A stretch of 64,000 nt of DNA from assembly GCF_003334305.1 (NCBI RefSeq), contig NZ_QOWS01000003.1; one strand, given 5' to 3'. The notes under the pieces were generated by a model. It was not told where the DNA came from and made no database searches. It saw nothing but the letters and a program-made list of their open reading frames with translations. Both the position numbers and the translations under genes were made by a program. Positions 7,668-64,000 of this stretch are shown here, piece by piece. How positions within the stretch are numbered: position 1 is the first letter of the stretch; every line of letters starts with the position of its first letter. Source of the stretch: Escherichia coli. GTDB taxonomy: Bacteria > Pseudomonadota > Gammaproteobacteria > Enterobacterales > Enterobacteriaceae.

Positions 7668-8814
7668 TATTCAATCCCTCATCGAGGCCTGCCAACCACC
7701 CTGCCTCAATATCATTATTCTTTAGTGCCTGGTGTAAACCCTGGCGATAAAACGTAGCAAATTTAGGTAAAATACCAAGCTGTTGATAACCAAGTAATTG
7801 TGGCAACGGCATTGCATTACCTTTGTTTTGCATATCCAGCACCATCAGGCGAGAGGCAACTAAATCGAGATCAGCACTTTTCCATTCTGGTTCGTCACCC
7901 GCTAATTGCACCATTTTTATCTGTCCACCTCGGGCACTACGGAAGTGAAAACCAATTAGACCTTGCTTAGCTTCAATATTGGGTTCAATGCGCTTTTCTT
8001 GTTCAGACAAACGAAATGCGATGGTGCGCGAATAGTTGCCTAAAATGCCATTGATAAATCGCAAATCTCCCACGCCAACCAAACTTTCATCCAGTCCTTC
8101 CAGATTTTGCATCAACTCTTTAGAAAACCCATCAGATGCTAAAATTTGTTTGCGTCCTTGTTCGGTACGTAAATCTTGTTTGGCGATACTTACAATGGCA
8201 CTAAAGCGCTCAGCCAAAATGCTCGCAAGTACTACACCATTTTGATTCCAGGGAAAAATTCTGGAGCGATGGTTTTGCCAAAAAGTTTCTATCACTTGTC
8301 TGGTTTTTTCGTACTCTTGTTTATGACGGACATTTCTCTCCAGCGGAGCCATATCCCGTGCTAAAAACAACGGCGTATCCAGCAAAATTAAATCGCCAGG
8401 CTCATAACCTAAAAGTTTTTTCTCAACTAACTGATAAGCCTGACGAATTTCAATTAAATCAAGCCGTTTACGCTGAGCTTCAAAATCAATATCATCCAGT
8501 TCTGATACCGAGTCGCTACCCACCGTGCTGACTTTATTGTCATCTATTAACAAATCTGTGCGCACTGCTGCACTGGCATAAATAAAACCACCCAATACCT
8601 TGTCTAAGCACGATTTAGTCGCAATACCGGCTACGCGTAAATTAACAATTGTGGGCTTGGGGACCGCTTTCACTAAGCCAGCATCACGGAATAGCGGCGC
8701 CACTTGCTCAATATCACGGACCTGTTTAAGCAAGCGTCCTGCACTTCCCGGTAAGCGAAGCTGGCTATCGATGGCGAGCGATTGCGCTAAATTCATCGTT
8801 TTGTTCTCATTCAT
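7657..8814 (-). CDS. Hypothetical protein (about 386 aa)
   Basis: ATG at 8814 (MNENKTMNLAQ...) lies 2 nt after the stop of the upstream gene; its 3' end overlaps the HerA-like start by 11 nt. No confident motif. Confidence 0.75.
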   Translation of the reverse strand: MNENKTMNLAQSLAIDSQLRLPGSAGRLLKQVRDIEQVAPLFRDAGLVKAVPKPTIVNLRVAGIATKSCLDKVLGGFIYASAAVRTDLLIDDNKVSTVGSDSVSELDDIDFEAQRKRLDLIEIRQAYQLVEKKLLGYEPGDLILLDTPLFLARDMAPLERNVRHKQEYEKTRQVIETFWQNHRSRIFPWNQNGVVLASILAERFSAIVSIAKQDLRTEQGRKQILASDGFSKELMQNLEGLDESLVGVGDLRFINGILGNYSRTIAFRLSEQEKRIEPNIEAKQGLIGFHFRSARGGQIKMVQLAGDEPEWKSADLDLVASRLMVLDMQNKGNAMPLPQLLGYQQLGILPKFATFYRQGLHQALKNNDIEAGWLAGLDEGLNNGL

Positions 8815-18935: not shown

Positions 18936-19322
18936 CTAATTTATCAGTACCAGCAAGGGGCCTTTAATCTCTATCTGCGCGTGCTTCTGTGCCAGTTTGC
19001 GTATCTGCTGTTCACTGGTCGTAATACCAGCAGGGAGCTTTTTCAGTACTTGTGCAAGGGGCATGCGCCCACCAGCTTGATGCAACAATGATACCAAATG
19101 TGCCGCGATATCAGGTATAACCTGGTACGTTGCCGTTGTGGGCCCTTTTAGATGATTACTTTGAGGCAATGAGGCAAGCCATAGCGAAACTTGAGACTGG
19201 CTAAAGCCAAGTGTTTGCCAGAGGGTTTGGTTCTCATTAAATACAACGGCGGCGCTTCTGGGAGTTGCTGTTTGCTGAGTTATTAGTTGTTCCAGGCTTT
19301 GTCGCTGGTATTCATGGGTCAT
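18936..19322 (-). CDS. Small hypothetical protein (128 aa), possibly helix-turn-helix
   Basis: ATGA overlap with the McrC-like gene stop; a 50-nt gap precedes the methyltransferase gene. The segment TLWQTLGFSQSQVSLWLAS loosely resembles an XRE-type HTH (weak). Confidence 0.65.
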   Translation of the reverse strand: MTHEYQRQSLEQLITQQTATPRSAAVVFNENQTLWQTLGFSQSQVSLWLASLPQSNHLKGPTTATYQVIPDIAAHLVSLLHQAGGRMPLAQVLKKLPAGITTSEQQIRKLAQKHAQIEIKGPLLVLIN

Positions 19323-20662
19323 CTCATGCCTCCACTATAGGATACTGAAGCAGCCATCCGATCCAGTTTGGGGCTCATTGTACAGGACACGTCATTCGGC
19401 CACATCATCCTCTCACCGCGTTTTGCCATTATCCGGTATGGCACAACCCATAATTTTAAAGTCTCCGAGAAAGCAAAATGCTGCGCTATAGGTTGGCTAA
19501 AGTCATCATGCGCAGGGTAAATCAGATACATTTCGCCATTCCCACCAAGATATTTTTGTCCGTAGGCAAACATTTGATAGAAGTCAGCTTGTGCCAGTCC
19601 ATAGAGTGATTTTGTCTGCTGGCTGCTATTCACCAGCTTCCATTTTGTATCCATCACCATTTCGGTTTGAACTGGTTTGTGTGATTGAATCAGCAAGTCG
19701 GGGCGAAGCTTAAAGCAATCTTTAAGTCCATGCTTTACCAAAGAATAAGTTGCTGCTTGAGGTAAAACTTTGAGGTGAGGTGGTAACTCGTCGGGTAGGG
19801 TCTGTGCCACAAAGGATTCAAATACCGCTTCCATAGGGAACAAAAGTGATATCGCTTTGGTGTTTCCCTGCAAAGCACTCGGGCTCATTCCCCTCAGGAT
19901 CAATTGCGCCCATGCCATTGGCTCGTTGTAATGAGCCATACCACGCTCGAGGCGTAAGTTGTTTATATCACGTTCAATATCCCGGCTAAGTGGAATACCG
20001 TCAAACGCAAAACGCAGTTCGTAAAGCCAGCGTTGATTATCTGATGACAGCTGCAGACTAAGAAGCTTATCTAGTGCGGAGTGTAAGAGCCGATTGGCTG
20101 CACAATCAGGCATGTAGTCATCATAATCGACACAAAACTTATGGCGATTCACCGCGTTATGTCGCAGCTGTGCAGAAAGCATCAGCTTGCCCTTCATAAA
20201 AGCCAGATTACCTTGCTTGCTCACATAGTCGGAGCGTAAACCCTGTTTAAGCAATTGGCTGACGCTATGCAAAAACTGGTTAATAAAAATCTCAAGCAAA
20301 GGCATACGCTGAGCCTGAAGAGTGGCTTGCTGGGTTTGAATATGTCGGAACCCAGGCAGATGGCTTAGCATCGTCAGCAATGTTTGACGTGCATTAGCCG
20401 CTGTGAGGTTTTTACCAACCTTGGGCAGTATCTCAAGCTGGAAACCGTGAGGTGTTGAAAGCATCCCTGCGTAGTTTTGAACCTGAAGCAATTTGAAGCC
20501 TGAGCGAGAGGTGAGTTTGAGGAACTGGCTCCCTTGATTACTTGCCAGGCTAAGCGCTTCTAAATAATTAAAGACCTGTGGAGGCACCGGTTTTGCGCCA
20601 ACTGAAGCCGCTTTTCCACTCCCCAAGAGGTCATATTCAAAAACGGAGATAACTTCACCCAT
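19319..20662 (-). CDS. McrC-like PD-(D/E)xK nuclease
   Basis: 447 aa; RPDLLI ... MDTKWK arrangement typical of the McrC catalytic core; overlaps the upstream McrB-like gene by 8 nt, as in mcrBC. Confidence 0.8.
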   Translation of the reverse strand: MGEVISVFEYDLLGSGKAASVGAKPVPPQVFNYLEALSLASNQGSQFLKLTSRSGFKLLQVQNYAGMLSTPHGFQLEILPKVGKNLTAANARQTLLTMLSHLPGFRHIQTQQATLQAQRMPLLEIFINQFLHSVSQLLKQGLRSDYVSKQGNLAFMKGKLMLSAQLRHNAVNRHKFCVDYDDYMPDCAANRLLHSALDKLLSLQLSSDNQRWLYELRFAFDGIPLSRDIERDINNLRLERGMAHYNEPMAWAQLILRGMSPSALQGNTKAISLLFPMEAVFESFVAQTLPDELPPHLKVLPQAATYSLVKHGLKDCFKLRPDLLIQSHKPVQTEMVMDTKWKLVNSSQQTKSLYGLAQADFYQMFAYGQKYLGGNGEMYLIYPAHDDFSQPIAQHFAFSETLKLWVVPYRIMAKRGERMMWPNDVSCTMSPKLDRMAASVSYSGGMR

Positions 20663-22730
20663 GATTTACTGCCTGCTCATCAAGGGGAGTCTGTTGGGGC
20701 TGATAAATTGAACGATAAGCCTGTGGAATATTCCAGATCTCTTGATCGAAATCTTTGAGCTCATAAGCTGTTGATTGCTGATCATGGCGTCGTAAACCAT
20801 GGTTGTTACCAAAAAGCGTATCGAGATCGTCGGTTTTCTCAATCACGAATTGCAGGTTGTCGTCTTGCTTTTGATTGTCTGCCAGCACCAACCGGATCTT
20901 GTTCCAGTCATCGAAAAAGTATTCCTGTAAAAGCGGAATGATCTTTTTCTGGAATGCGATCTTCAATTGTTTAAACGCAGCTTCTTCATCACCGGCATCG
21001 AGTGCATTTTTTACCGGCATAAAGAACGCATGCCCCAGCGTATGTTCACGATCGTAAAGAGCCTCGATGCGGCTATTGAGTTTCTCTAACAACGACTCGA
21101 GCTCTATGCCTTTCACCTTAGCTTCACTCAGTAAAGAGAGATCAGGCATCATTTCGACAAAGTCAAAGCGACGGCGCAAAGCCGTGTCCATCAGAGCTAA
21201 AGAACGGTCCGCTGTATTCATGGCTCCGATGATATCGACATTGCCGGGTACGCTGAAGTGATCACCGCTATAAGCCAGTTGCAGGCTCATCGCATTGGGC
21301 ATGCCTGCACGCTTGTCTACTTCAATGAGTGAGATTAGTTCACCAAAGATCTTGGATATGTTACCGCGATTGATCTCATCAATGAAAATGGCGTAGCGAT
21401 GTCCTGGATCGGCATTCGCACGTTGGCAAAGGCGCATAAAGATACCCGGCTCAATGGGATAAGAGATATTGCCACTCTCGTCAGAGCGAGCGCGTATACC
21501 TTCAATAAATTCTTCATAGCCGTAAGATTGGTGGAACGTAACCACCGCAAAACGCTGGATGGCTTCGGCAGATTTAGGGCCACGTTTAAGTTCGGCGTAG
21601 AGCTCTACCAAATCCTCCACTTGCTCGAGCTGTGAATCAACTAGAAACCATTCGCTGTTATCTGTTTTGTTAAATACGGCAGGCTCACGCCGATTCTTAT
21701 AATCAACGGTTAACGACTCGGGAACTGTATAGGATTGCAAAGCTGCCCAGGCAGTATTCGATAGATTGCCATTACGACCGTTTAATAATGCCTTACGTTG
21801 AAACCACATATGTTCAATAATTTGGCGAACTTTCGCTCGTTTCCCAAGATCGAGCAGCACCAGCGTTATAACCTGCATCCAGTTCAACGATTCAAGGCGA
21901 GAATCCAGCCAGGCATCACGATCAGCGGGAACAGCATGAGAAGTGTACTCTTTCATTTTTTGCTGCAACCTGAAGGTCTTGCCAGTGCCAGGGGGGCCAA
22001 AGAAGATCACGTTAGTTGGTGAATGTAGGATGATCTTGTTCTCGATGGGCTCACTGCGGGTTATGGATGTAGTGCTAGCTACTTTCTCCTGCTTTTGTTC
22101 ATTATCGCGTTCACGGAGCAATTCATAGAGATGCCAGATGGCCATATTCACATAATAAGGATCTGTATCAGGAGATTGGGCGTGTATGGCTTGTTTCAAT
22201 TCATAGTTTTTCTGTAACCAATTTCCGGTCAGTACCAAACCGAGATGGAAGTGCTGATTTAAGAATTCTGCTGCTTTATTAAAAGCATTCTCATCCACAG
22301 TACTGGTGTAGTTTTCTGGCGAGAACGCGGCAAAGACGCGATTTCTCAAACTCCAATACATACGCTTGAGAAGTCCGTTTTCTTTAGCTTGTTGAAGTGC
22401 ATTGCCAACATATTGGTAAGTTTCTTCATCCGGCTGTTGCCGAATTCGTTCAGTTAGTTCTCTAAGCAGTGGCAGGCTTTGCTGATATTCTGCTAAGGAT
22501 GGAACGCCCTGGCGAATACTTGCAATGCCGTTGTCACGCTCATACCAAAGCTGTTTGACCAGACCATCTGTTGCAGGCTCAGCAAAAGTTGAGGTTTGCT
22601 GTAGCAAAGTCGTAAATGCACGGTATCGCTGATACCATCTGGAAGCTGTGTAATTTTTATCTTTCGCCAGGGCATCAATCAATTCACTAATCGTTAGCCT
22701 ACCTGCTTCGACACTATCTACAAGAGTCAT
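20655..22730 (-). CDS. McrB-like AAA+ NTPase with a distinct N-terminal domain of about 230 aa
   Basis: 691 aa; Walker A GPPGTGKTF, Walker B FIDEINRGN and the McrB-type ALRRRFDF motif. First gene of the operon; GAGGAA ribosome-binding site 8 nt upstream of the ATG. Confidence 0.85.
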   Translation of the reverse strand: MTLVDSVEAGRLTISELIDALAKDKNYTASRWYQRYRAFTTLLQQTSTFAEPATDGLVKQLWYERDNGIASIRQGVPSLAEYQQSLPLLRELTERIRQQPDEETYQYVGNALQQAKENGLLKRMYWSLRNRVFAAFSPENYTSTVDENAFNKAAEFLNQHFHLGLVLTGNWLQKNYELKQAIHAQSPDTDPYYVNMAIWHLYELLRERDNEQKQEKVASTTSITRSEPIENKIILHSPTNVIFFGPPGTGKTFRLQQKMKEYTSHAVPADRDAWLDSRLESLNWMQVITLVLLDLGKRAKVRQIIEHMWFQRKALLNGRNGNLSNTAWAALQSYTVPESLTVDYKNRREPAVFNKTDNSEWFLVDSQLEQVEDLVELYAELKRGPKSAEAIQRFAVVTFHQSYGYEEFIEGIRARSDESGNISYPIEPGIFMRLCQRANADPGHRYAIFIDEINRGNISKIFGELISLIEVDKRAGMPNAMSLQLAYSGDHFSVPGNVDIIGAMNTADRSLALMDTALRRRFDFVEMMPDLSLLSEAKVKGIELESLLEKLNSRIEALYDREHTLGHAFFMPVKNALDAGDEEAAFKQLKIAFQKKIIPLLQEYFFDDWNKIRLVLADNQKQDDNLQFVIEKTDDLDTLFGNNHGLRRHDQQSTAYELKDFDQEIWNIPQAYRSIYQPQQTPLDEQAVNHG

Positions 22731-22899: not shown

Positions 22900-23772
22900 T
22901 CACCCCCTAAAAACCTCTTTCCGATGCCACTCTACAAACACCTCATAAGGGTAATTTTTACGCACCTGCGGCAACGCAATAGTTTTCCCGTCAAAATCCC
23001 AGAATAATCTCTCAACGATCCCTCCGCCGTTTACCGCATCTGATACCAGTACCCGCATATTTTCATCCAGGCCAATCGATCCTTTATCAAAGGCTTTATG
23101 GTGAATTGCGCAAAGCGCCAGGCCATTAGGAATTTCACAAGGACCTCCTTGCTGTTTCCATTTTATATGCGCCGCTTCCAACGCTACGGTGGTGTCGTCG
23201 TGGCGCATATTAAAGCCACATATCGCGCACTGGTAGTTATAAGCGCGTAATACATTTTTGCGAAATAAAGGGTCGCGCTGTTTACGGATTTGCTGGAGAT
23301 CAAAACCCAGCTCGTCAGCAATTTCTTCCTGAATACTCTCGGTGAAGTGCGCTTCGAGTATCTGTTGCGCCAGAGTATTGATGAGTTTTTTATTGCCGGT
23401 TACCAGGGCGTAGTGCTGTTCATCGAAACCGCCTGCAACGTGGTATTCGTTCAGTTCCTTCACTGGCGGTTGTCGGCTGCTCCCTGCTGTTGAGCAAAGC
23501 TCGGCATTGTGTAATTGCCAGAATCCGTCGCCTTGTAATCGCCAGAACGGCATATCAGGTCGGTAATGTGAACGCTGTGGCCCAAAACGTTCCAGTAAAC
23601 TGTGCAGAGGTTCGTAGATTTCCGATCCATAATCGAAAAGGCGTGGATGTCCATTCAGGTATCCCGCTAATACGTATAGCAATAACAATGGCTTATGCGG
23701 CGCGCGCTGTTCACCTTTGTGCCAGATTTTTATGTTGGCAATTGCCTGCTGTAGCGATTTACTGGAAGCCAT
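22900..23772 (-). CDS. HNH endonuclease with an uncharacterised N-terminal domain (candidate modification-dependent restriction enzyme)
   Basis: C-terminal HNH motif CAICGF ... AAHIKWKQQGGPCEIPNGLALCAIHHKAFDKG. Preferred start is the ATG at 23772 (MASSKSL), preceded by AGGGA; the ORF track extends to 23829 with a TTG start. Confidence 0.78.
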   Translation of the reverse strand: MASSKSLQQAIANIKIWHKGEQRAPHKPLLLLYVLAGYLNGHPRLFDYGSEIYEPLHSLLERFGPQRSHYRPDMPFWRLQGDGFWQLHNAELCSTAGSSRQPPVKELNEYHVAGGFDEQHYALVTGNKKLINTLAQQILEAHFTESIQEEIADELGFDLQQIRKQRDPLFRKNVLRAYNYQCAICGFNMRHDDTTVALEAAHIKWKQQGGPCEIPNGLALCAIHHKAFDKGSIGLDENMRVLVSDAVNGGGIVERLFWDFDGKTIALPQVRKNYPYEVFVEWHRKEVFRG

Positions 23773-23983
23773 TGATATCCCTGGCAGTGAAATAATTGCG
23801 ATCATGCTCGCAAATTTTCGGCTGTTCAAGCCTGCAAGTGAAGATATATTACTTTGATCTCATTTGTTTTTTTGCTGCCTGTGTACCCTAATTGCCATGC
23901 GATGTTGCACCGACGCAAACCACCTTTTACGCCGGAGGAGTTAAAAGCGTTGATGGATGCGAATAAATCAAATTAATGAACGC

Positions 23984-53263: not shown

Positions 53264-54544
53264 CTAAAAATTGCCGAGGGGGAACAAGGCCGGGAGCTGC
53301 GACAACAAATATAAAATTAGCCCAATACAACCGCCAACCAGCGTACCGTTGACACGGATAAACTGCAGATCTTTGCCGATATTTAACTCTATTTGCCGCG
53401 ACATATCCCGCGCATCCCAGCTTTTTACCGTATCGCTGATATGGCGCGTCAGGAATGCGGAAAACTCAGGCGCGACGCGGTGCGCGGCTTGTTCCAGATG
53501 ACCATTTAACGACGCCCGCAAGGCATCATCGGCAATTAACGTTTCGCCAAACCATTGACCCGCCCGCGCGATACGTTCTTTCACACGAGAATCTTCACTG
53601 TTGATATCCGCTTTCAGCCATTCCCGTAAATCCCCCCACAATTCACTGAGATAGCGGTTAAAAGCTTCATCTTCTTTCAGATAGCTTTTTACGGCATCAG
53701 CTCGCGCTGCCATTTCAGGATCGTTTTTCAACTTGTCGATCAGGGCAAAAGTGGCGCGATCAAACGCATGGCGGATCTGATGCGCACGATCGCGGCTGAT
53801 ATCATCAAGCAAAGAATTCACCGCGTCAGAAACCAACTCCGCGCTATGTTCGCCCAGCCATTCGGTGGGGAGAATTTTGGCTTTTAGTGGATGCTCGCTC
53901 TCCAGCCAGCGAACAATTTGCTGGGCGATTAACTTGCGCGATTTATCGCGCTGGAGAAGGGCGATCAACTGTGCGATCAGCGTATCCAGCAGCACCTGAT
54001 GACGATCGTTTTTGGTCATACTCTCCAGCATCAACGCACTGGTGCCGGAAAGATCTACCTTATCAATCGCCCGATGGACCGCGCGCTTAAGCAGGCGCTG
54101 AATACGCGCATCATCGGTCAGTTCAAGAAAACCGCTCATGATCTGCAACAGATGCTGACCAACGCGGCGGGCGTTTTCTGGCTGACTAAACCAGTTGCCA
54201 ATCAACAACGCCGGTTCGTGACGTCGAATCAATGCCACCAGCGACTGGGTATCGAGAAATTTTTCCTGCACGAACTGGCCGAGATTTTCGCCAATCCGGT
54301 CTTTATTACGCGGGATAATCGCCGTATGACGAGAAATGATCGGAATCGGCACGCGGCGAAACAGCGCCACCACCGCAAACCAGTCCGCCAGCGCGCCGAC
54401 CATCGCCGCTTCAGCAATCGCCTTCACGCCGCTCACCCAAAAATTGGGCGGCAAAAACAGCGTAACGACAAAGGTAGCAGCGGCGATAAGCAGTAAAGAG
54501 AGCGCCAACATTTTGGCGCGTCTGAGTTCAATGAGTTTATTCAT
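53264..54544 (-). CDS. yjiN: Inner-membrane protein YjiN (DUF445)
   Basis: 426-aa ORF with N-terminal transmembrane segments. Confidence 0.85.
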
Positions 54545-54584
54545 AACGTTAAGAATAGAGCCTGACGGCAGGATCGCGCAAAAA

Positions 54585-55817
54585 TCACCGCTCCTCCGCC
54601 AGCTCGGCAGCCTGATGTTGGCGCACGCGATTGAGCAATCCTGCCAGGGTGAAAACGACGATAACGCCCGCCACGACGGCTAACAGATGAAACGGCAAGC
54701 GACCGCCGTTAAACCACAGCCAGCGGCCGATTTCGACCGAGACAGACATCACCATCAGGATCACCATATTCAGCGATGCGGAGACGGTTCCTTTCGGTAA
54801 GTTATTGGAAAAAAGCGTAAAGCGGAATAAGGTCGGGAAGATCAAACCAATCCCGAAAGCATACAAACTGGTGCCCAGCACCGACCACAGCCAGACGTGC
54901 GGTGACAGCAGATTGCCGATAATCAACAGCGCGAGGCCGACCAGTTGAATGGGTACAGCACGCCAGATAAAGCGCGGTTCGGTCGGATCTTTAACGAAAC
55001 GCGCCACGATGGCATTCGCGACAATCACCGCGCCGAACACCGGAACCTGTGTCCAGGCGAACTGCGAAGTTGTTAAGCCGCCTGCGTCAATCAGGATCAC
55101 CGGCGAGACAGCCACCCAACTCATCATCGGGATATAGCTTAAAGAGATGGTTGCTGCGCCAAAGAGGAACAGCCGGTTGCAAAAGACATTACGAAAATCG
55201 CGCAAGACGCTTTTGGCGCTAAATGGAACCGCGCCGCGCTTCACCGTCTCTGGCATCGCCAGCAGTAAGCCAACAAATGAGATAAACCCCATAACCGCAA
55301 TGATGGCAAAAAGGACTTTCCAGTGCACAAAGTGCATCAGAGCTGCGCCGGAAAGCGGGCCAATAATCGGCGCAATCAGTACGATGGAGGTGATAATCGC
55401 CATCAACTTAATCCCTTTTGTCTGTCCGAACGCCTCCTGCACCGTGACATAACCAACGGTAGCAATAAAACAGATACTGGTGCCCTGAATTGCACGCGCG
55501 ATAAGAAACTGTGTCATAGACGTTGTGAACATTGTCGCAGCGCAGGCAAGGGTAAATATTAGCGCCCCGGTAATCAGCACCGGCCTGCGGCCAATCCTGT
55601 CGGAAAGCGGCCCCAGCAGCCACTGTAACGCCATACCCCCCGCGAGATAGAGACTGACGGCAGCCGGAGCCAGACTGACATCGGCATTAAAATCACGGAC
55701 CACATTAATGATCCCCGGCTGGATCAGATCCGTCGAAAGATAGGCGGCAAAGTCATACAAAATCAACGCCATCGGGAAAAACAGCGTAGCGGCATGGCGG
55801 GCAAAAAAACGTGGCAT
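54585..55817 (-). CDS. mdtM: MFS multidrug efflux transporter MdtM
   Basis: [26 protein letters not shown] ... (about 410 aa), 12-TMS MFS. Confidence 0.92.
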
Positions 55818-56283
55818 AACAAACAACTCCTTGTCCGGAGAACCCCAACGGGGAAAACGAAATTCAATACCGTCGGTAATGACGAAAGGCAGGCGAGAAG
55901 GACAAATGTACTGAATTTCATGTAATCAACCACACTGCCTGTGAACACACAGACAGAGAAATACCTTCTGACTCCAGGTCAGAATGTATAACGATTACAA
56001 ATAGTCATCAGCACATTACACCTCTTTAATTGATGGGTTGCATAGAAAATATACACCTTAAGTGTAATTAAAATTTGCGGTTAATCAAAAGAGCGCGGTG
56101 GAAAGGGGAATATCTGCCGGGTACAGGAAATGTAAAACGCGAGCCTGTTTCCGGAAAAATGTATCGTTTGCAGAGGAACACAAATAGCCTGGAAAGCGCC
56201 TCGGGGAACGAGAAATTGCCGGGTGAGAATGGTTTTGTTAGTCGCTACAGTCGGGCCATCTTATCTACAGGTGACGGATCGCC

Positions 56284-57228
56284 ATGACAAACTTCACAAC
56301 CAGCACGCCGCATGACGCATTATTTAAATCCTTTCTCACGCACCCTGACACCGCGCGGGATTTTATGGAGATCCACTTACCCAAAGATTTACGTGAACTG
56401 TGCGATCTCGACAGCTTAAAACTGGAATCCGCCAGCTTCGTCGATGAAAAATTGCGGGCGCTACACTCCGATATTCTGTGGTCGGTAAAGACCCGTGAAG
56501 GTGATGGTTATATTTACGTAGTGATTGAACATCAGAGCCGCGAGGATATCCATATGGCCTTTCGCCTGATGCGATATTCCATGGCGGTGATGCAGCGCCA
56601 TATCGAGCATGATAAACGCCGGCCGCTACCGCTGGTCATCCCGATGCTGTTTTATCACGGTAGCCGTAGTCCTTATCCCTGGTCCCTGTGCTGGCTGGAC
56701 GAATTTGCTGACCCGACCACCGCACGGAAGCTTTATACCGCAGCGTTCCCGCTGGTGGATGTCACTGTCGTGCCAGACGACGAGATTGTGCAGCACCGCA
56801 GAGTCGCCCTGTTGGAGTTGATCCAAAAGCATATTCGCCAGCGCGATCTGATGGGGCTTATCGATCAACTGGTAATATTACTGGTTACAGAGTGTGCTAA
56901 TGACAGCCAGATAACTGCGCTGTTAAATTACATTTTACTGACTGGCGATGAAGCGCGTTTTAAGAAGTTTATCAGCGAACTTACCCGTCGAATGCCACAA
57001 CACAGGGAGCGAATAATGACGATTGCAGAGCGAATTTATAATGATGGATGGCTGTTGGGGATGGAAAAGGGGAAAGAAGAAGGGGAACAACGCCTCCTTA
57101 GATTGTTGTTGCAGAATGGGGCAGATCCTGAATGGATACAAAAGATTACCGGACTTTCGACAGAGCAAATGCAGGCATTAGAGCAGCCCTTGCCTGAAAT
57201 CAAGCGCGATCCATGGATCGAATACTAA
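56284..57228 (+). CDS. rpnD: Rpn-family recombination-promoting nuclease-like protein (PD-(D/E)XK, transposase_31 fold), apparently intact
   Basis: 314-aa uninterrupted ORF starting [33 protein letters not shown] with [11 protein letters not shown] in the nuclease core. Confidence 0.8.
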
Positions 57229-57318
57229 TCAGAGACGGATGACAAACGCAAAGCTGCCTGATGCGCTACGCTTATCAGACCTACATTTCCTCTGCAATCT
57301 ATTGAATTTGCGCGGTTT

Positions 57319-57352
57319 GTAGGCCGGATAAGGCGTTCACGCCGCATCCGGT
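57319..57352. repeat. REP element
   Basis: gtaggccggataaggcgttcacgccgcatccgg. Confidence 0.7.
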
Positions 57353-57469
57353 ATGAACGAAGCACACTTTGCCTAAGCCATGCTGGAACGTGGCGATGAC
57401 CCTGCAAAGATACAACGAGTTACAGGCGATTCGTGAGAGGAAATCAGGTGCTTCGCCACTAATTCGAAT

Positions 57470-58882
57470 TTATTCCATTGCCCGATACACGGCCTCGCCA
57501 ATTTGCTTTAGTGCTTCGCGATAGGTTTCGCTGAGCGGCAAAGCGCAGTTGATGCGTAGACAATTACGGTATTTGCCGGAAGCCGAGAAAATCGAGCCTG
57601 CTGCCACCTGGATATTCATGCGGCACAGCTGCCGCGCAACGCAGACCATATCGACCTGTTCAGGCAATTCTATCCACAGTAAAAATCCGCCTTTCGGGCG
57701 CGTAATACAGATTTCGCAGGGAAAATATTCCCGTATCCAGCAGGTATAAAGCGCCAAATTGCGCTGATAGCTCTGCCGCATCCGCCGGATATGGCGATGA
57801 TAGTGACCTTCCAGCACAAACGTTGCCGCCGCCATTTGCGTGGACGGCACATTAAAGCTGCTGATGGCGTATTTCATATGCATCAGTTTATCGTGATAAC
57901 GCCCCGGTGCGACCCAACCCACGCGCAGGCCTGGAGCAATACTTTTACTGAACGAGCTGCACAACAACACTCGCCCGTCGATATCCCATGAATGGATGGT
58001 CCGCGGGCGCGGATACTCCGTTGCCAGTTCGCCGTAGACATCATCTTCAAAAATCACAATATCATGACGCTGAGCGAGAGAGAGAACGGCCCGTTTGCGT
58101 GCGTCCGGCATAATAAATCCCAGCGGATTATTACAGTTTGGCACCAGAATGATGCCTTTAATCGGCCACTGTTCCAGCGCCAGTTCCAGTGCTTCAACGC
58201 TGATGCCAGTTTCTGGATCGGTTGGGATTTCAATCACTTTCACGCCCATGCCTCGCAGCATCTGCATCGAACCGTAATAACAGGGAGATTCGACCGCGAC
58301 AATATCGCCCGGTTTACACACCGCCATTAACGCCAGCGACATCGAGTTATGGCAGCCGCTGGTGATGATGATGTCATCGGCGGTGACCACCGAGCCGCTG
58401 TCGAGCATCAGGCGGGCAATCTGCTCCCGCAACACTCGCTGACCGGCTAACAAGTCATAACCGAGAACGGTTTGCAGATTATGCTGCACCACCCGGCTTA
58501 GCTCACGCCACAGCGGTTTCAGGCTGGGCGTTTCGACATCCGGCGTGCTTTTGCTTAACGGAACAATGGAATTGTCGCTATGCGCCTCCAGCATATCCAG
58601 CACCTGATCCCACTGGGTAATTTCCACCGGGCGCTGCACCGGACGCGTCATCGGCGGTACAGGCGGCTGGGCTTTACGTTGTGCGACAAAATAACCCGAA
58701 CGCGGCTGCGGAGTGATGAGCCTCATCGTTTCCAGCGTCTGATACGCCTGTTGCACGGTGCTGATGCTGACGCCGTGCTCCTGACTTAAGCTGCGCACCG
58801 ACGGCAATTTCTCCCCGTGACGATACAGCCCTTGCTCAATCCGCTCGGCAAGTAGAGTCGCCAGATGTTGATAACGCGTCAT
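57470..58882 (-). CDS. yjiR: MocR-type regulator (GntR HTH fused to a PLP aminotransferase-like domain) YjiR
   Basis: 470 aa; N-terminal winged HTH (EKLPSVRSLSQEHGVSISTVQQAYQTLE) and a fold-type I aminotransferase domain. Confidence 0.9.
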   Translation of the reverse strand: MTRYQHLATLLAERIEQGLYRHGEKLPSVRSLSQEHGVSISTVQQAYQTLETMRLITPQPRSGYFVAQRKAQPPVPPMTRPVQRPVEITQWDQVLDMLEAHSDNSIVPLSKSTPDVETPSLKPLWRELSRVVQHNLQTVLGYDLLAGQRVLREQIARLMLDSGSVVTADDIIITSGCHNSMSLALMAVCKPGDIVAVESPCYYGSMQMLRGMGVKVIEIPTDPETGISVEALELALEQWPIKGIILVPNCNNPLGFIMPDARKRAVLSLAQRHDIVIFEDDVYGELATEYPRPRTIHSWDIDGRVLLCSSFSKSIAPGLRVGWVAPGRYHDKLMHMKYAISSFNVPSTQMAAATFVLEGHYHRHIRRMRQSYQRNLALYTCWIREYFPCEICITRPKGGFLLWIELPEQVDMVCVARQLCRMNIQVAAGSIFSASGKYRNCLRINCALPLSETYREALKQIGEAVYRAME

Positions 58883-59058
58883 GCTGTATTCCTTATTTGG
58901 CCCATACAGAAAGAAAAACCGGTACAGATGAGGCTAAAAAACCGGATGCAGATGCTGTTTTAACCTGTCTGTATGTTAAATAAAACTAATATTTGCATCT
59001 GTATTGTGAACTGCCAGAAGGCGGATGATGAAGCCTCTGAAAGATGAGGAGGCAGCAG

Positions 59059-59223
59059 ATGGAATTTCACGAAAACAAAGCCAAAACGCCGTTTATCAGA
59101 CTTGTGCAACTCTGGCATGCGGTGAGGCGTTGGCGGCGGCAAATGCAGACCCGACGAGTGTTACAGCAGATGAGTGATGAACGGTTGAGGGATATTGGGT
59201 TACGCAGGGAGGATGTGGAGTGA
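59059..59223 (+). CDS. yjiS: Small DUF1127 protein YjiS
   Basis: 54-aa ORF MEFHENKAKTPFIRLVQLWHAVRRWRRQMQTRRVLQQMSDERLRDIGLRREDVE with GAGGAGG upstream; below the ORF-track length cutoff. Confidence 0.8.
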   Translation: MEFHENKAKTPFIRLVQLWHAVRRWRRQMQTRRVLQQMSDERLRDIGLRREDVE

Positions 59224-59574
59224 ACTATGGGCGGCGTGTTGGCAAATGCTGCCTGTCTGCATTCAAAATTGCTACAAAATCCAACCATAAAAGTCGTTTA
59301 CAACATATTTTTCTGATTTACATACAGATAATGACCTGAGCTGTCTCTCTGGGGGTCATCATCTATGCGTCCGGGGGATCTGTCACAAAAAGGAATAGAA
59401 CAAAATCATCAGCGGTGAATAAAGCGATTCGTTTTAGATCACATTAATGAAATTTTTGTATCAAAAATTAGTTATCGCGCTCACAGTTCATAATGAAACA
59501 ATTCTCTGCAAATAGATAACCGAAGCTTCGTTGCTAGTATCAATTCGCTAATTATACACCTGCCAGAGGATACA

Positions 59575-62115
59575 ATGAAAAATAGAAATCGTATGATCGT
59601 GAACTGTGTTACTGCTTCCCTGATGTATTATTGGAGCTTACCTGCACTGGCTGAGCAGTCGTCAAGTGAGATAAAGATTGTTCGCGATGAATACGGCATG
59701 CCGCATATTTATGCCAATGATACATGGCACCTATTTTATGGCTATGGCTATGTAGTAGCACAAGATCGCCTTTTTCAGATGGAAATGGCACGTCGCAGTA
59801 CTCAAGGGACTGTCGCGGAAGTGCTTGGCAAAGATTTTGTGAAATTTGATAAAGATATCCGTCGTAACTACTGGCCGGATGCTATCCGGGCGCAAATTGC
59901 TGCCCTTTCCCCAGAGGATATGTCCATTCTGCAAGGCTACGCTGATGGAATGAATGCCTGGATTGATAAGGTAAATACCAATCCAGAGACGCTCTTACCA
60001 AAACAGTTTAATACATTTGGCTTTACTCCTAAGCGCTGGGAACCGTTTGATGTCGCGATGATATTTGTGGGCACCATGGCAAACCGCTTCTCTGATAGCA
60101 CTAGCGAAATTGATAATCTGGCACTGCTAACGGCTTTAAAAGATAAATATGGTGTATCACAAGGCATGGCGGTATTTAATCAGTTGAAATGGCTGGTAAA
60201 CCCATCAGCGCCAACCACTATTGCCGTACAAGAGAGTAACTACCCACTTAAATTTAATCAGCAAAACTCGCAAACAGCAGCTCTGTTGCCACGCTACGAT
60301 TTACCTGCACCAATGCTTGACCGACCAGCAAAAGGGGCGGATGGCGCACTGCTGGCGTTAACAGCAGGGAAGAACCGGGAAACTATTGCTGCACAATTTG
60401 CACAGGGTGGTGCCAATGGTCTGGCGGGGTATCCAACGACCAGCAATATGTGGGTGATCGGCAAAAGCAAAGCCCAGGATGCGAAAGCAATCATGGTAAA
60501 TGGTCCGCAGTTTGGCTGGTATGCGCCTGCGTATACTTATGGTATTGGTCTGCACGGTGCTGGTTATGATGTCACTGGCAATACACCATTTGCCTATCCT
60601 GGGCTGGTTTTTGGTCATAATGGTGTGATTTCCTGGGGATCAACGGCAGGTTTCGGCGATGATGTCGATATTTTTGCTGAACGGCTGTCGGCAGAGAAAC
60701 CAGGCTACTACTTGCATAATGGTAAGTGGGTGAAAATGTTAAGCCGTGAGGAAACCATTACGGTGAAAAATGGTCAGGCAGAGACCTTTACTGTCTGGCG
60801 TACGGTGCATGGCAACATTCTCCAAACTGACCAGACGACACAAACGGCTTACGCTAAATCCCGCGCATGGGATGGTAAAGAGGTGGCGTCTTTGCTGGCC
60901 TGGACTCATCAGATGAAGGCCAAAAATTGGCAGGAGTGGACACAGCAGGCAGCGAAACAAGCACTGACCATCAACTGGTACTATGCTGATGTAAACGGCA
61001 ATATTGGTTATGTTCATACTGGTGCTTATCCAGATCGTCAATCAGGCCATGATCCGCGATTACCCGTTCCTGGTACGGGAAAATGGGACTGGAAAGGGCT
61101 ATTGCCTTTTGAAATGAACCCTAAGGTGTATAACCCCCAGTCGGGATATATTGCTAACTGGAACAATTCTCCCCAAAAAGATTATCCCGCTTCAGATCTG
61201 TTTGCCTTTTTGTGGGGTGGTGCAGATCGCGTTACGGAGATCGACCGACTGCTTGAGCAAAAGCCACGCTTAACTGCTGATCAGGCATGGGATGTTATTC
61301 GCCAAACCAGTCGTCAGGATCTTAACCTGAGGCTTTTTTTACCTACTCTGCAAGCAGCGACATCTGGTTTGACACAGAGCGATCCGCGTCGTCAGTTGGT
61401 AGAAACATTAACACGTTGGGATGGCATCAATTTGCTTAATGATGATGGTAAAACCTGGCAGCAGCCAGGCTCTGCCATCCTGAACGTTTGGCTGACCAGT
61501 ATGTTGAAGCGTACCGTAGTGGCTGCCGTACCTATGCCATTTGATAAGTGGTACAGCGCCAGTGGCTACGAAACAACCCAGGACGGCCCAACTGGTTCGC
61601 TGAATATAAGTGTTGGAGCAAAAATTTTGTATGAGGCGGTGCAGGGAGACAAATCACCAATCCCACAGGCGGTTGATCTGTTTGCTGGGAAACCACAGCA
61701 GGAGGTTGTGTTGGCTGCGCTGGAAGATACCTGGGAGACTCTTTCCAAACGCTATGGCAATAATGTGAGTAACTGGAAAACACCTGCAATGGCCTTAACG
61801 TTCCGGGCAAATAATTTCTTTGGTGTACCGCAGGCCGCAGCGGAAGAAACGCGTCATCAGGCGGAGTATCAAAACCGTGGAACAGAAAACGATATGATTG
61901 TTTTCTCACCAACGACAAGCGATCGTCCTGTGCTTGCCTGGGATGTGGTCGCACCCGGTCAGAGTGGGTTTATTGCTCCCGATGGAACAGTTGATAAGCA
62001 CTATGAAGATCAGCTGAAAATGTACGAAAATTTTGGCCGTAAGTCGCTCTGGTTAACGAAGCAGGATGTGGAGGCGCATAAGGAGTCGCAGGAAGTGTTG
62101 CACGTTCAGAGATAA
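59575..62115 (+). CDS. pac: Penicillin G acylase precursor (Ntn-hydrolase)
   Basis: 846 aa; [74 protein letters not shown] matches remembered E. coli penicillin G amidase (signal peptide, alpha subunit, spacer, beta subunit beginning SNMWVIG). Confidence 0.95.
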
Positions 62116-62130
62116 TTAAGCCCGAAAGCC

Positions 62131-62158
62131 CTCATATTCTGGAGGAATATGAGGGTGA
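62131..62158. terminator. Hairpin between convergent pac and yjiA
   Basis: ccctcatattc / gaatatgaggg stem with a 5-nt loop; flanking T-runs are weak. Confidence 0.35.
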
Positions 62159-62192
62159 TAAAGTCTCAGGTATTGTGATGTTGGAGGGCTGG

Positions 62193-63149
62193 TTACTTTT
62201 TGAGTCCCGCAAACGCCGCCCGAATCTCATCCTCCGGCAACTGAATCCCGATAAACACCATCGTGCTATGCGGTGTTTCATCGCCCCATGGCCTGTCCCA
62301 GTCGGCGCTGTAGAGGCGCTGGACGCCCTGGAACAGCAGGCGGTTAGGTTCGCCGTCAATCCACAGCATCCCTTTGTAACGCAGCAGTTTATCCGCCGAT
62401 TCCAGCAGCAGGTTTTCCATCACCCGGGAAACTTCGCTGATATCTACCGGGTAATCCAGTTCCACCACAATCGACGAAATATCGTTTTGTTTGTCCGCGA
62501 TAAAATGGAAACGCGGTTTGGTGCTGACGACGTTTTCTTCCAGCATAAAACCGTTGGTGTTGAACAGCAGACCCAGGTCGATGTCGCCGTGGGTGACGGT
62601 GTAGACCGGTGCACGGGCGTTGATGCGTGCCAGACGTTCACGCAGTTTTTCTGCTTCGCCTGCGACGTCGGTTTTAGTCAGCAGAATACGGTCGGCGTAG
62701 CCCACCTGGGACTGGGCGATGGTGAACTGGTTCATCTGCTCATCGGCATGTACCGCATCCACCAGCGCAATCACGCCGTCCAGCAGGTAGCGCTGGCATA
62801 AAATCTCATGGGAGAAAAAGGTTTGAATAATCGGGCCAGGATCGGCCATGCCGGTGCATTCAATGACCAGACGATCGAACTGAATATTGCCCTTGTCGAG
62901 ATTATCCAGCAGGTCGAGTAGCGCGTCCTCCAGCTCGTTGGAGCGCGAACAGCAGATGCAGCCGTTGGTCAGCGTTTTGATCTGCGTTGCGCGATCACCA
63001 ATCAATTGATCATCAACGGAGACTTCGCCGAATTCGTTTTCAATCACGGCAATCTTGTAGCCGTGTTGTTCATTAAGAATATGGCGCAGCAGGGTGGTTT
63101 TGCCCGCGCCTAAAAAACCGGTGAGTAGGGTAACTGCAATCGGGTTCAT
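62193..63149 (-). CDS. yjiA: CobW/COG0523-family GTPase YjiA
   Basis: MNPIAVTLLTGFLGAGKTTLLRHILNE (P-loop) and a GCICC motif; 318 aa from the ATG at 63149. Confidence 0.93.
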   Translation of the reverse strand: MNPIAVTLLTGFLGAGKTTLLRHILNEQHGYKIAVIENEFGEVSVDDQLIGDRATQIKTLTNGCICCSRSNELEDALLDLLDNLDKGNIQFDRLVIECTGMADPGPIIQTFFSHEILCQRYLLDGVIALVDAVHADEQMNQFTIAQSQVGYADRILLTKTDVAGEAEKLRERLARINARAPVYTVTHGDIDLGLLFNTNGFMLEENVVSTKPRFHFIADKQNDISSIVVELDYPVDISEVSRVMENLLLESADKLLRYKGMLWIDGEPNRLLFQGVQRLYSADWDRPWGDETPHSTMVFIGIQLPEDEIRAAFAGLKK

Positions 63150-63159
63150 GCTCTCTCCA

Positions 63160-63363
63160 TTAACAACAGCGCATACCGCCTTTACCATCGCCGCCGTAGC
63201 GTGCGTTCTGGCGTTCGCGGAAGAATTCTTCATAGCTCATGTACGGCTTGTCGGGATGGTTGGTCTTCATATGCTCGACGTAGTTGTCGTAGTCTGGAAT
63301 GCCAATCAACATCTTCGCCGCCTGGCCGAGATATTTTTTTGCCTGTCCTAAGTTACCAAACAT
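63160..63363 (-). CDS. yjiX: Small DUF466 protein YjiX
   Basis: 67 aa [58 protein letters not shown]; partner of the downstream CstA-family transporter. Confidence 0.88.
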
Positions 63364-63412
63364 AGTTCACTCTGATAAGAACAAAGCCCCGCCGAAGCGG
63401 GGCTAAATACGG

Positions 63413-64000
63413 TTAGTGGTGCGAAGAGATCTTCACGCCGCCTTCCGGGATTGGAACGTACGGTGTTTCTTTGTCAGTACGTTTGTCGCTGTTACGCACA
63501 TTCAGCCAGGTTTTGAAACCGTAGAAGATGATGCTGTACACCACAATCAGGAACAGAATACTCAGGCCTGCGTTGGTGTAGTTGTTCACAACGATGTGGT
63601 TCATGTTGGCAATCTGCTGCGCCGTCAGGTCAGTACCGTTAGCAATCTTCTCTTTGTACTGGCTTGCCATGTAGAAGAAGCCTTCCATCTGCGGGTTGGT
63701 GCTGAACAGTTTCAGACCCAGCGCCCAGGTGGTGCAGATAAGCAGCCATACAGCCGGAACAACAGTTACCCAGATGTATTGGGTGCGCTTCATCTTAATC
63801 AGCACAACGGTGCCCAGTACCAGCGCTACGGCTGCCAGCATCTGGTTGGAAATACCGAACAGCGGCCACAGGCTCTTAACGCCGCCCAGCGGATCGACCA
63901 CGCCCTGATACAGCAGGTAGCCCCACAGACCCACACAGCCCGCAGTACCGATGATACCGGCAACCAGAGAGTCGGTTTTTTTCAGGAACGGGATGAAGTT
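63413..64000 (-). CDS. btsT: CstA-family pyruvate/peptide transporter BtsT (YjiY), 3' part only; gene continues past the window end
   Basis: Hydrophobic C-terminal segment ending KETPYVPIPEGGVKISSHH; the frame stays open to position 64000. Confidence 0.85.
   Translation of the reverse strand, partial: NFIPFLKKTDSLVAGIIGTAGCVGLWGYLLYQGVVDPLGGVKSLWPLFGISNQMLAAVALVLGTVVLIKMKRTQYIWVTVVPAVWLLICTTWALGLKLFSTNPQMEGFFYMASQYKEKIANGTDLTAQQIANMNHIVVNNYTNAGLSILFLIVVYSIIFYGFKTWLNVRNSDKRTDKETPYVPIPEGGVKISSHH

What the first reader, a model, noticed from the sequence alone, without database searches (positions are those of the whole stretch)
59224..62192. Penicillin G acylase gene sits where K-12 carries the immigration control region
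yjiS (59059-59223) and yjiA (62193-63149) are separated only by pac. From memory, K-12 has mcrC-mcrB-symE-hsdS-hsdM-hsdR-mrr between these two genes. This strain therefore lacks the classical EcoK-type immigration control region at its usual locus and has RM-like functions at the leuX island instead. Presence of pac suggests an E. coli W or ATCC 11105-like background.
Basis: partly seen in the sequence, partly recalled or inferred. Interest (0 to 1): 0.55.

Follow-up and report, generated by a model that had tools for sequence, protein, structure and literature searches.

The report
Penicillin acylase gene replacing restriction genes
In this E. coli strain the chromosomal slot that holds the restriction genes in K-12 holds only the penicillin G acylase gene; this is real, but it was published for E. 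coli W in 2011 and about one in five complete E. coli genomes has it.

Summary
yjiS (59059-59223, +) and yjiA (62193-63149, -) are separated by a 2,969-bp segment (59224-62192). Its only gene is pac (59575-62115), an intact penicillin G acylase precursor. Homology to K-12 stops at the yjiS stop codon and resumes at the yjiA stop codon. K-12 carries yjiT-yjiV-mcrCB-symER-hsdSMR-mrr (16 kb) in that slot.

None of this is new. Archer et al. [quoted passage not shown] The segment here is identical to W's (0 differences in 2,969 nt). The same yjiS-pac-yjiA arrangement is in 1,068 of 5,426 complete E. coli genomes. That is about twice the number with a K-12-type region (538), so pac does not mark a W lineage.

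The leuX island in the window does carry defence genes: an HsdM-family methylase, an S subunit, distant McrBC-like genes and an HNH nuclease.

I add one point. pac orthologues in Kluyvera, Silvania, Lelliottia and Leclercia lie in the same yjiS/yjiN-yjiA interval, inside a small metabolic gene group. The PaaX operator upstream of pac is conserved in Kluyvera.

Verdict: already known, low interest.

The parts
59059..59223 (+). yjiS (DUF1127 small protein), the left conserved anchor. Homology to K-12 ends at its stop codon.
59224..62192 (.). Allele-specific segment (the pac cassette, 2,969 bp). It occupies the slot that holds the 16-kb yjiT...mrr region in K-12.
   Evidence: No match to K-12. 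Present in 1,075 of 5,426 E. coli genomes, at >=99% identity in 1,060. Identical to E. coli W.
59224..59417 (.). Left part of the cassette, 38.5% G+C across the upstream spacer, with no detectable homologue in K-12 or in the Kluyvera, Silvania or Lelliottia loci. Origin unknown.
59318..59362 (-). Possible relic of the start of a divergently transcribed AraC-family regulator gene. It reads MMTPRETAQVIICM-stop, against Kluyvera MTTPREIHQTFI..., at the corresponding distance from the pac ATG (215 bp versus 232 bp). Weak evidence.
   Evidence: 81 of 2000 shuffles score as well against K. cryocrescens; not significant against K. sichuanensis.
59418..59574 (+). pac promoter, operator and 5' leader. 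This is the only non-coding part of the cassette that is conserved with the six Kluyvera loci.
59425..59463 (+). PaaX operator-like site, CGATTC-N27-GTATCA (published consensus TGATTC-N27-GAATCA). Both half-sites are conserved in Kluyvera.
   Evidence: It is the only match in the 64-kb window. The consensus comes from PMC9493321, citing Kim et al. 2004.
59470..59485 (+). CRP-like site AGTTATCGCGCTCACA (2 mismatches to TGTGA-N6-TCACA). The CTCACAGTTC core is invariant in Kluyvera. A second TCACA half-site lies at 59438-59442.
   Evidence: The motif count in the window is no higher than chance; the assignment rests on position and conservation.
59575..62115 (+). pac, the penicillin G acylase precursor (846 aa). 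Signal peptide: residues 1-26 (59575-59652). Alpha chain: 27-235 (59653-60279). Spacer peptide: 236-289 (60280-60441). Beta chain: 290-846 (60442-62112), starting with the nucleophile Ser290.
   Evidence: Protein identical to that of E. coli W.
62129..62155 (.). Perfect 11-bp stem with a 5-nt loop, between the convergent pac and yjiA stop codons. Probably a two-way terminator or 3'-end stabiliser. It is allele-specific: K-12 and Silvania have unrelated REP-like hairpins at this position.
   Evidence: free energy -27.1 and -23.3 kcal/mol; z -3.4 and -4.5
62193..63149 (-). yjiA (COG0523 GTPase), the right conserved anchor. Homology to K-12 resumes at its stop codon.

Best explanation
Segment 59224-62192 is the 'pac allele' of the variable yjiS-yjiA interval, known as the immigration control region or E. 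coli defence hotspot #36. It is a single-gene, non-defence cassette, identical to that of E. coli W.

Shown here: it encodes an intact penicillin G acylase precursor with the signal peptide, alpha chain, spacer and beta chain in the expected order.

From the literature and my own knowledge: the precursor is exported to the periplasm. It then cuts out its own 54-residue spacer, which exposes Ser290 as the N-terminal nucleophile. The mature enzyme hydrolyses phenylacetyl amides and esters and releases phenylacetate, which feeds the paa pathway. The neighbouring hpa cluster handles the 4-hydroxy analogues. Transcription is repressed by PaaX, relieved by phenylacetyl-CoA, and activated by cAMP-CRP.

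Shown here: a PaaX operator-like site lies 112-150 bp upstream of the ATG.

Inferred: the allele is exchanged between strains by homologous recombination in the conserved flanks. It has no mobility genes of its own, and the flanks are unusually divergent between alleles. A strain with this allele has no restriction system at this locus. Any restriction it has must come from other islands, such as the leuX island in the same window.
For: The coordinates and the exact homology break-points come.

PGA identity: matches to PDB 1E3A, 1GK9 and 1PNK cover residues 27-286 and 287-846. Ser290 starts the beta chain. Ser B1, Gln B23, Phe B24, Ala B69, Asn B241, Arg B263, Met A142, Arg A145 and Phe A146 are all present. 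Homologues carry Pfam PF01804.

The cassette and its protein are identical to those of E. coli W. It is present in 1,068-1,075 of 5,426 complete genomes, nearly always as the sole occupant of the slot.

No inverted or direct terminal repeats were found. The only ORFs of 40 aa or more besides pac are short ones overlapping it, so there is no room for a transposase or integrase gene. There are no real plasmid or phage copies and no PADLOC defence family in the cassette.

The PaaX operator-like site is the only match in the window, and it lies in the stretch conserved with Kluyvera. The consensus is from PMC9493321.

Identity to K-12 falls to 90-97% in the last 5 kb before the cassette and is 96.8% after it. 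Further away most 1-kb bins are 98-99.9% identical, with a few lower ones.

Published statement of the replacement in W: PMC3032704. Published description of the locus as a cassette-like hotspot that also holds a 'penicillinase' and an aldehyde dehydrogenase in some enterics: PMC12707154.
Against: Nothing contradicts the identification. The steps not tested here are enzyme activity, export route, PaaX and CRP binding in this strain, and the recombination mechanism. With two mismatches the PaaX motif is expected about 3 times by chance in 64 kb, so its weight comes from position and conservation. The hairpin lacks a clear U-tract on the pac strand, so its role as a terminator is inferred.
Confidence: 0.93

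Rival explanations
1. Origin rival A: E. coli acquired pac horizontally from another enterobacterium that already carried pac in the same yjiS-yjiA interval. The incoming DNA displaced whatever was there, and the allele then spread within E. coli by recombination in the flanks.
For: pac GC3 is 0.45, against 0.56-0.67 for 17 of 22 neighbouring genes. In Kluyvera, Silvania and Lelliottia, pac GC3 (0.70-0.71) matches its neighbours. No species-representative genome of another Escherichia species matched in the 100,044-species scan. The E. coli alleles are >=99% identical in 1,060 of 1,075 genomes, which suggests a single fairly recent origin. Orthologues lie in the same interval in at least four other genera.
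Against: No donor is known. The protein database shows one E. coli-type cluster and then a gap down to 86% identity. The known syntenic orthologues have high GC3, so none of them is the source of a low-GC3 gene. The immediate flanks, yjiS and yjiA, are ordinary E. coli sequence right up to their stop codons, so the joints are not simple homologous crossovers with a foreign genome.
Confidence: 0.5
2. Origin rival B: pac is an old, vertically inherited resident of this interval in Enterobacteriaceae. Restriction cassettes are the later intruders. E. coli keeps the pac allele as a long-lived polymorphism, a trimmed version of a larger LysE-AraC-pac-aldehyde dehydrogenase-outer-membrane-protein islet.
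For: The position is the same in Kluyvera (6 loci), Silvania, Lelliottia, Leclercia and an Enterobacter metagenome-assembled genome. PGA identity falls roughly with taxonomic distance: Kluyvera 85-87%, Leclercia 84%, Lelliottia and Silvania 80%, Buttiauxella 72%, Providencia 63-64%. It lies between the flanking proteins: YjiR 79-80%, YjiS 57-62%, YjiA 91-93%. The promoter with its PaaX operator is conserved. There is a possible relic of the AraC gene start at the expected position and strand.
Against: The low GC3 of E. coli pac is hard to reconcile with long residence next to high-GC3 neighbours. pac is absent from the representatives of other Escherichia species. The AraC relic is statistically weak. 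No relics of the aldehyde dehydrogenase, LysE or outer-membrane-protein genes were found. In Buttiauxella pac lies elsewhere.
Confidence: 0.3
3. pac arrived on a transposon, integron cassette, phage or plasmid that inserted next to yjiA and deleted the restriction genes.
For: Only the compositional oddity (low G+C in the upstream spacer, low GC3) and the sharp boundaries.
Against: No terminal inverted repeats or target duplications were found. No ORF in the 2,969 bp is long enough to be a transposase or integrase gene. There is no phage match. The only 'plasmid' matches are records of 0.4-4.8 Mb, which are chromosomes or chromosome fragments. There are no remnants of K-12 restriction genes in the flanks. 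Insertion sequences, where present, interrupt pac rather than flank it (IS1203 in an O111:H8 strain).
Confidence: 0.03
4. The arrangement is an assembly or laboratory artefact, for example a deletion made in an industrial strain.
For: None.
Against: The same junctions occur in more than 1,000 independent complete genomes from wild and domestic animals, humans, food and water.
Confidence: 0.01

Closest known systems
pac locus of E. coli W (ATCC 9637) and its derivative ATCC 11105 (Archer et al. 2011, PMC3032704)
   Same: The 2,969-bp cassette and the PGA protein are identical. The neighbours are the same: rpn-yjiR-yjiS on one side and yjiA-yjiX-btsT on the other. A related leuX defence island is present.
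   Different: W has a 45-bp deletion in the yjiR-yjiS spacer, 5 substitutions in yjiA, a different S-subunit sequence (window 15463-16724 has no match) and about 0.2-0.9% divergence elsewhere. The window therefore comes from a relative of W, not from W. Strain A7 (orangutan) is 100% identical over both regions tested.
Immigration control region of E. coli K-12 (hotspot #36; Sibley & Raleigh 2004; PMC12707154)
   Same: The chromosomal slot is the same and is bounded by the same anchor genes. The replacement is cassette-like, with break-points at the ends of yjiS and yjiA.
   Different: K-12 has 16 kb holding type I (hsdRMS) and type IV (mcrBC, mrr) restriction systems plus symER. Here there are 3 kb holding one metabolic gene and no defence gene. 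The K-12-type region is the rarer form among complete genomes: 538 against 1,068.
pac locus of Kluyvera species (K. cryocrescens PGA, PDB 4PEL/4PEM)
   Same: An orthologous enzyme (85-87% amino-acid identity) in the same yjiS-yjiA interval. The promoter region, including the PaaX operator-like site and the 5' leader, is conserved.
   Different: In Kluyvera pac sits among a LysE/RhtB-family exporter, an AraC-family regulator (divergent from pac), an aldehyde dehydrogenase and a small outer-membrane protein. Its GC3 matches its neighbours (0.70). E. coli has pac alone, with GC3 0.45.
Providencia rettgeri and Alcaligenes/Achromobacter penicillin G acylases
   Same: Same Ntn-hydrolase family (Pfam PF01804), same precursor architecture.
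   Different: Only 63-64% and 40-53% identical. Their genomic contexts were not examined, except Alcaligenes pakistanensis (L016), which has no yji genes nearby.

Membership tests
Penicillin G acylase (Ntn-hydrolase, Pfam PF01804 / MEROPS S45) | Full-length sequence similarity to structurally solved PGA | tested here: met
   phmmer against PDB: 1E3A, 1GK9 and 1PNK chains cover residues 27-286 and 287-846, with 1300+ bits for the beta chain. The protein is identical to RefSeq WP_000797400.1, 'penicillin G acylase', of E. coli W.
Penicillin G acylase (Ntn-hydrolase, Pfam PF01804 / MEROPS S45) | Precursor layout: signal peptide, alpha chain, spacer peptide, beta chain starting with the nucleophile Ser | tested here: met
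   Residues 1-26, 27-235, 236-289 and 290-846. Ser290 lies in the context TT|SNMWVIG.
Penicillin G acylase (Ntn-hydrolase, Pfam PF01804 / MEROPS S45) | Oxyanion-hole and substrate-pocket residues (Gln B23, Phe B24, Ala B69, Asn B241, Arg B263, Met A142, Arg A145, Phe A146; the residue list is from my own knowledge of the PGA structures) | tested here: met
   All are present at the expected positions.
Penicillin G acylase (Ntn-hydrolase, Pfam PF01804 / MEROPS S45) | Autoproteolytic maturation and hydrolysis of penicillin G or phenylacetyl amides | not testable with these tools
   This needs an enzyme assay. It is inferred from sequence identity with the well-studied W / ATCC 11105 enzyme.
PaaX/CRP-regulated pac promoter (Kim et al. 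2004; Galan et al. 2004) | PaaX operator TGATTC-N27-GAATCA upstream of pac | tested here: met
   CGATTC-N27-GTATCA at 59425-59463 is the only match in the window at up to 2 mismatches and is conserved in six Kluyvera loci. Binding itself was not tested.
PaaX/CRP-regulated pac promoter (Kim et al. 2004; Galan et al. 2004) | CRP sites upstream of the promoter | tested here: inconclusive
   There is one 2-mismatch match at 59470-59485 and a TCACA half-site at 59438-59442. The number of such matches in the window equals the chance expectation. The original papers were not available to me.
Immigration control region / E. coli defence hotspot #36 | Variable segment bounded by the conserved anchors yjiS (or yjiN) and yjiA | tested here: met
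   definition from PMC12707154
Immigration control region / E. coli defence hotspot #36 | Carries restriction-modification or other defence genes | tested here: not met
   No PADLOC family matches PGA, YjiS, YjiA or the antisense ORF. No K-12 region homologue lies at this locus. This is a non-defence allele of the hotspot, as the literature already notes.
Self-mobile genomic island, transposon or prophage | Integrase or transposase gene, terminal repeats or attachment sites, tRNA or insertion-sequence association | tested here: not met

The most novel reading that the evidence does not exclude
The pac allele is not a one-off 'replacement' in W-like strains. It is the E. coli version of an old, syntenic metabolic islet (LysE/RhtB exporter, AraC regulator, pac, aldehyde dehydrogenase, small outer-membrane protein) that occupies the yjiS-yjiA interval in several enterobacterial genera. 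E. coli keeps only pac with its PaaX-controlled promoter, plus a 14-codon relic of the lost divergent AraC regulator. On this reading the famous restriction hotspot alternates between defence cassettes and an aromatic-amide scavenging cassette. Loss of the local AraC regulator left pac under control of PaaX, whose gene lies elsewhere on the chromosome.
Probability: 0.3. Interest if true: 0.3.

Novelty: already known. Interest (0 to 1): 0.12.

Why it matters
The practical consequence is modest and already appreciated. Strains with this allele have no type I or type IV restriction at the classical locus. This is part of why E. coli W is treated as a restriction-minus host. They also carry the industrially important penicillin acylase.

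The survey here adds perspective. The K-12 arrangement used as the textbook reference is the rarer form among complete genomes: 538 against 1,068. So absence of the K-12 region at this locus is not unusual, and it does not mean the strain lacks restriction, because the leuX island in the same window carries defence genes.

The cross-genus synteny of pac shows that hotspot #36 exchanges metabolic cassettes as well as defence cassettes. A 2025 review (PMC12707154) already illustrates this.

Tried and rejected
1. Remnants of mrr, hsdR or other K-12 restriction genes in the pac flanks. blastn with word size 11 and tblastn of all K-12 region proteins found nothing at this locus.

2. Hallmarks of a mobile element. 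No meaningful terminal repeats were found. An 11-nt exact direct repeat between the yjiS end and the pac end (59198-59220 and 62051-62073, 78% over 23 nt) is at chance level for 3.6 kb.

3. Plasmid or phage carriage. There are no phage hits, and the 'plasmid' hits are Mb-scale mislabelled chromosomes.

4. Non-coding RNA in the cassette. The Rfam E-value scan gave only sub-threshold archaeal snoRNA noise inside yjiS.

5. Remnants of the Kluyvera-type neighbours (aldehyde dehydrogenase, LysE, outer-membrane protein) in the E. coli flanks. None were found. The AraC-start match is only suggestive: 81 of 2000 shuffles score as well with one Kluyvera query, and it is not significant with another.

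6. Homology of the pac-yjiA spacer with Silvania or K-12. There is none. Each allele has its own hairpin or REP-like element.

7. The consensus promoter scan found no sigma-70 match on the pac strand upstream of pac. I therefore give no -10/-35 assignment.

8. Sibley & Raleigh 2004 and Galan et al. 2004 are not in the held library. What I say about them rests on citing papers and on memory.

9. A closer donor for pac. The protein search shows a gap between the E. coli cluster and 86% identity.
Full report
**Observation**

The six-frame ORF list shows one long ORF in the interval, at 59575-62115 on the + strand, encoding 846 aa. yjiS ends at 59223 and the yjiA reading frame ends at 62193 on the - strand. 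The RefSeq annotation of strain C11 is 100% identical over 58900-63400. Shifted by the offset of 38,899, it gives yjiS 59059-59223, 'penicillin G acylase' 59575-62115, yjiA 62193-63149 and yjiX 63160-63363.

blastn of 56-64 kb against K-12 MG1655 gives two blocks: 57316-59223 at 96.1% identity and 62193-64000 at 96.8%. Homology therefore stops at the yjiS stop codon and resumes at the yjiA stop codon. The two anchor genes converge on the variable segment.

The K-12 annotation places yjiT, the yjiV pseudogene, mcrC, mcrB, symE/symR, hsdS, hsdM, hsdR and mrr (15,993 bp) in the same slot.

**What the segment contains**

The pac product matches the solved E. coli PGA structures (1E3A, 1GK9, 1PNK) over both chains. 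It has the canonical layout: signal peptide 1-26, alpha chain 27-235, spacer 236-289, and a beta chain that begins with Ser290. All catalytic and pocket residues that I know from the PGA structures are present.

The cassette differs from E. coli W at 0 of 2,969 positions, and the protein is identical.

A stretch of 351 bp lies upstream of the ATG.
- Only its last ~155 bp (59418-59574) are conserved with the six Kluyvera loci.
- That block contains CGATTC-N27-GTATCA at 59425-59463. This is the single match in the window to the published PaaX operator TGATTC-N27-GAATCA (consensus from PMC9493321). Both half-sites are conserved in Kluyvera.
- It also contains a CRP-like site at 59470-59485. The number of such matches in the window is no higher than chance, so this assignment rests on position and conservation.
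- The left ~195 bp (59224-59417) match nothing I could find.

Downstream, a perfect 11-bp hairpin (62129-62155) lies between the convergent stop codons and folds stably on both strands. K-12 and Silvania have unrelated REP-like hairpins at the same place.

No repeat structure, mobility gene, non-coding RNA family or defence family was found in the cassette.

**How common it is**

- The cassette is present in 1,075 of 5,426 complete E. coli genomes: full length in 1,068 and at >=99% identity in 1,060.
- The whole yjiS-pac-yjiA stretch is present in 1,069 genomes.
- A K-12-type region at >=80% coverage is present in only 538.
- The few plasmid hits are records of 0.4-4.8 Mb, which are chromosomes, and there is no phage hit.
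- In some Shiga-toxin-producing lineages the gene is interrupted, for example by IS1203 in an O111:H8 strain.

**Literature**

A 2025 review describes the locus as defence hotspot #36. It notes non-defence occupants such as a 'penicillinase' and an aldehyde dehydrogenase, and it describes the leuX island as the neighbouring hotspot #37 (PMC12707154). The finding is therefore correct but already published.

leuX, tRNA-Leu(CAA), is at 2214-2298. It is followed by:
- an integrase-sized ORF at 2646-3764 (not checked against NCBIfam or Pfam; no PADLOC match);
- a minus-strand cluster with an HsdM-family methylase (16738-18885), an S subunit (15263-16741), large unannotated proteins (9676-13962 and 13959-15260), a HerA-like ATPase (5982-7667) and a Ser/Thr kinase (3966-5435);
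- a McrC-like and McrB-family pair (19319-22730);
- an HNH nuclease (22900-23829).

The PADLOC and NCBIfam matches to the methylation-associated defence system (MADS) components mad2, mad5, mad6 and mad8 are all below the curated cut-offs. So 'RM-like functions at the leuX island' is right. 'Instead' is an inference.

The 'W-like' claim is half right. The window is 99.1-99.8% identical to W from 16.7 kb to its end. But the S subunit differs, W has a 45-bp deletion between yjiR and yjiS, and yjiA differs at 5 sites. Other isolates, such as strain A7 from an orangutan, are 100% identical over both the leuX island and the pac region.

**What I add: synteny in other genera**

A scan of one genome per species (100,044 species) found pac orthologues in Kluyvera (6 loci, 85-87% amino-acid identity), Leclercia (84%), an Enterobacter metagenome-assembled genome (84%), Silvania and Lelliottia (80%) and Buttiauxella (72%). 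No other Escherichia representative matched.

tblastn with the window's flanking proteins shows that pac lies between yjiR-yjiS (or yjiN) and yjiA-yjiX-btsT in every genus except Buttiauxella.

In those genera pac is accompanied by a LysE/RhtB-family exporter, an AraC-family regulator (divergent from pac in Kluyvera), an aldehyde dehydrogenase resembling succinate-semialdehyde dehydrogenase, and a small outer-membrane protein.

**Origin of the E. coli allele**

In Kluyvera, Silvania and Lelliottia, pac GC3 (0.70-0.71) equals that of its neighbours. In E. coli it is 0.45, against 0.56-0.67 for 17 of 22 neighbouring genes. The protein database has one E. coli-type cluster (4,702 members) and then nothing above 86% identity.

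A 14-codon minus-strand ORF at 59362-59318 (MMTPRETAQVIICM) resembles the start of the Kluyvera AraC gene at the matching distance from pac. It is only weakly supported: 81 of 2000 shuffles score as well with one query, and it is not significant with another.

These data leave two origins open. E. coli may have acquired pac from an unsampled, lower-GC relative with the same synteny, or it may have retained an old resident of the interval. I lean to acquisition (0.5 against 0.3).

Identity to K-12 drops to 90-97% in the 5 kb before the cassette and is 96.8% after it. Further away most 1-kb bins are 98-99.9% identical, with a few lower ones. This fits the known hitch-hiking of flank polymorphism with alleles of this locus, and allele exchange by homologous recombination. 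That mechanism is inferred, not shown.

**Verdict**

The W inference is weakened, because the allele is common. The biology (the PGA enzyme, PaaX and CRP control, replacement of the restriction region) is established. Novelty: already known. Interest: low.

Noticed in passing
window 2214-23829: The leuX (tRNA-Leu CAA) island holds an integrase-sized ORF (2646-3764, not confirmed by a family search) and a 9-gene minus-strand cluster: a Ser/Thr kinase, a 199-aa ORF, a HerA-like ATPase, 410-aa and 291-aa ORFs, a 1,428-aa protein with no family hit, a 433-aa ORF, an S subunit and a 715-aa HsdM-family methylase. The cluster gives weak, sub-cut-off matches to MADS components mad2, mad5, mad6 and mad8. 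A McrBC-like pair and an HNH nuclease follow. The island is present at >=80% coverage in 207 of 5,426 E. coli genomes. The 1,428-aa and 433-aa proteins are uncharacterised and may deserve their own look.
   Followed up: partly
window 15463-16724: The S (specificity) subunit gene of the leuX methylase system has no megablast match to the otherwise 99%-identical E. coli W island. This is the usual swapping of target-recognition domains, and it implies a different methylation specificity from W.
   Followed up: partly
window 56284-57228: An intact 314-aa Rpn-family recombination-promoting nuclease gene (the rpnD orthologue) lies two genes from the cassette. In K-12 the same gene is a pseudogene (yjiP/yjiQ). 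A paper on RecA-independent replacement at this region implicates yjiP (PMC4498929; seen only as a search hit).
   Followed up: no
window 58921-58965 (yjiR-yjiS spacer): The window and K-12 have a 176-bp spacer. E. coli W has 131 bp, a 45-bp deletion between short CCTG/CCGG-type repeats. This is a handy marker that separates W from its many pac-positive relatives.
   Followed up: yes
window 54000-59223 and 62193-64000: Identity to K-12 falls to 95-97% in yjiN-mdtM-rpn-yjiR (89.9% in the 57-58 kb bin, which spans the rpn-yjiR spacer) and is 96.8% in yjiA-yjiX-btsT. Further away most bins are 98-99.9%, with a few lower. This looks like the classical polymorphism peak around the hsd locus.
   Followed up: partly
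L004-L015 (Kluyvera, Silvania, Lelliottia, Leclercia loci), pac at 6001-8540 in each: pac orthologues sit in the same yjiS/yjiN-yjiA interval in several genera, with a LysE/RhtB exporter, an AraC regulator, an aldehyde dehydrogenase and a small outer-membrane protein, in varying order. In Leclercia adecarboxylata NCTC13032 (L015) and Kluyvera genomosp. 3 (L013) the pac match is broken into several pieces, which suggests pseudogenes.
   Followed up: partly
L002 27057-38277 (strain C11, just beyond the window's right end): In pac-positive strains the 4-hydroxyphenylacetate (hpa) catabolic cluster lies between btsT and tsr, about 4 kb from pac. K-12 lacks it there. This linkage of two aromatic-acid functions is known from work on E. 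coli W. It cannot be checked in the window itself, which ends inside btsT.
   Followed up: partly
E. coli genome hit H48 (NZ_CP077481, O111:H8) and H70 (NZ_CP029692): pac is interrupted by an IS1203 (IS3-family) insertion in an O111:H8 strain. It is split or partial in a few other genomes (7 of 1,075), so the gene is dispensable in some lineages.
   Followed up: no
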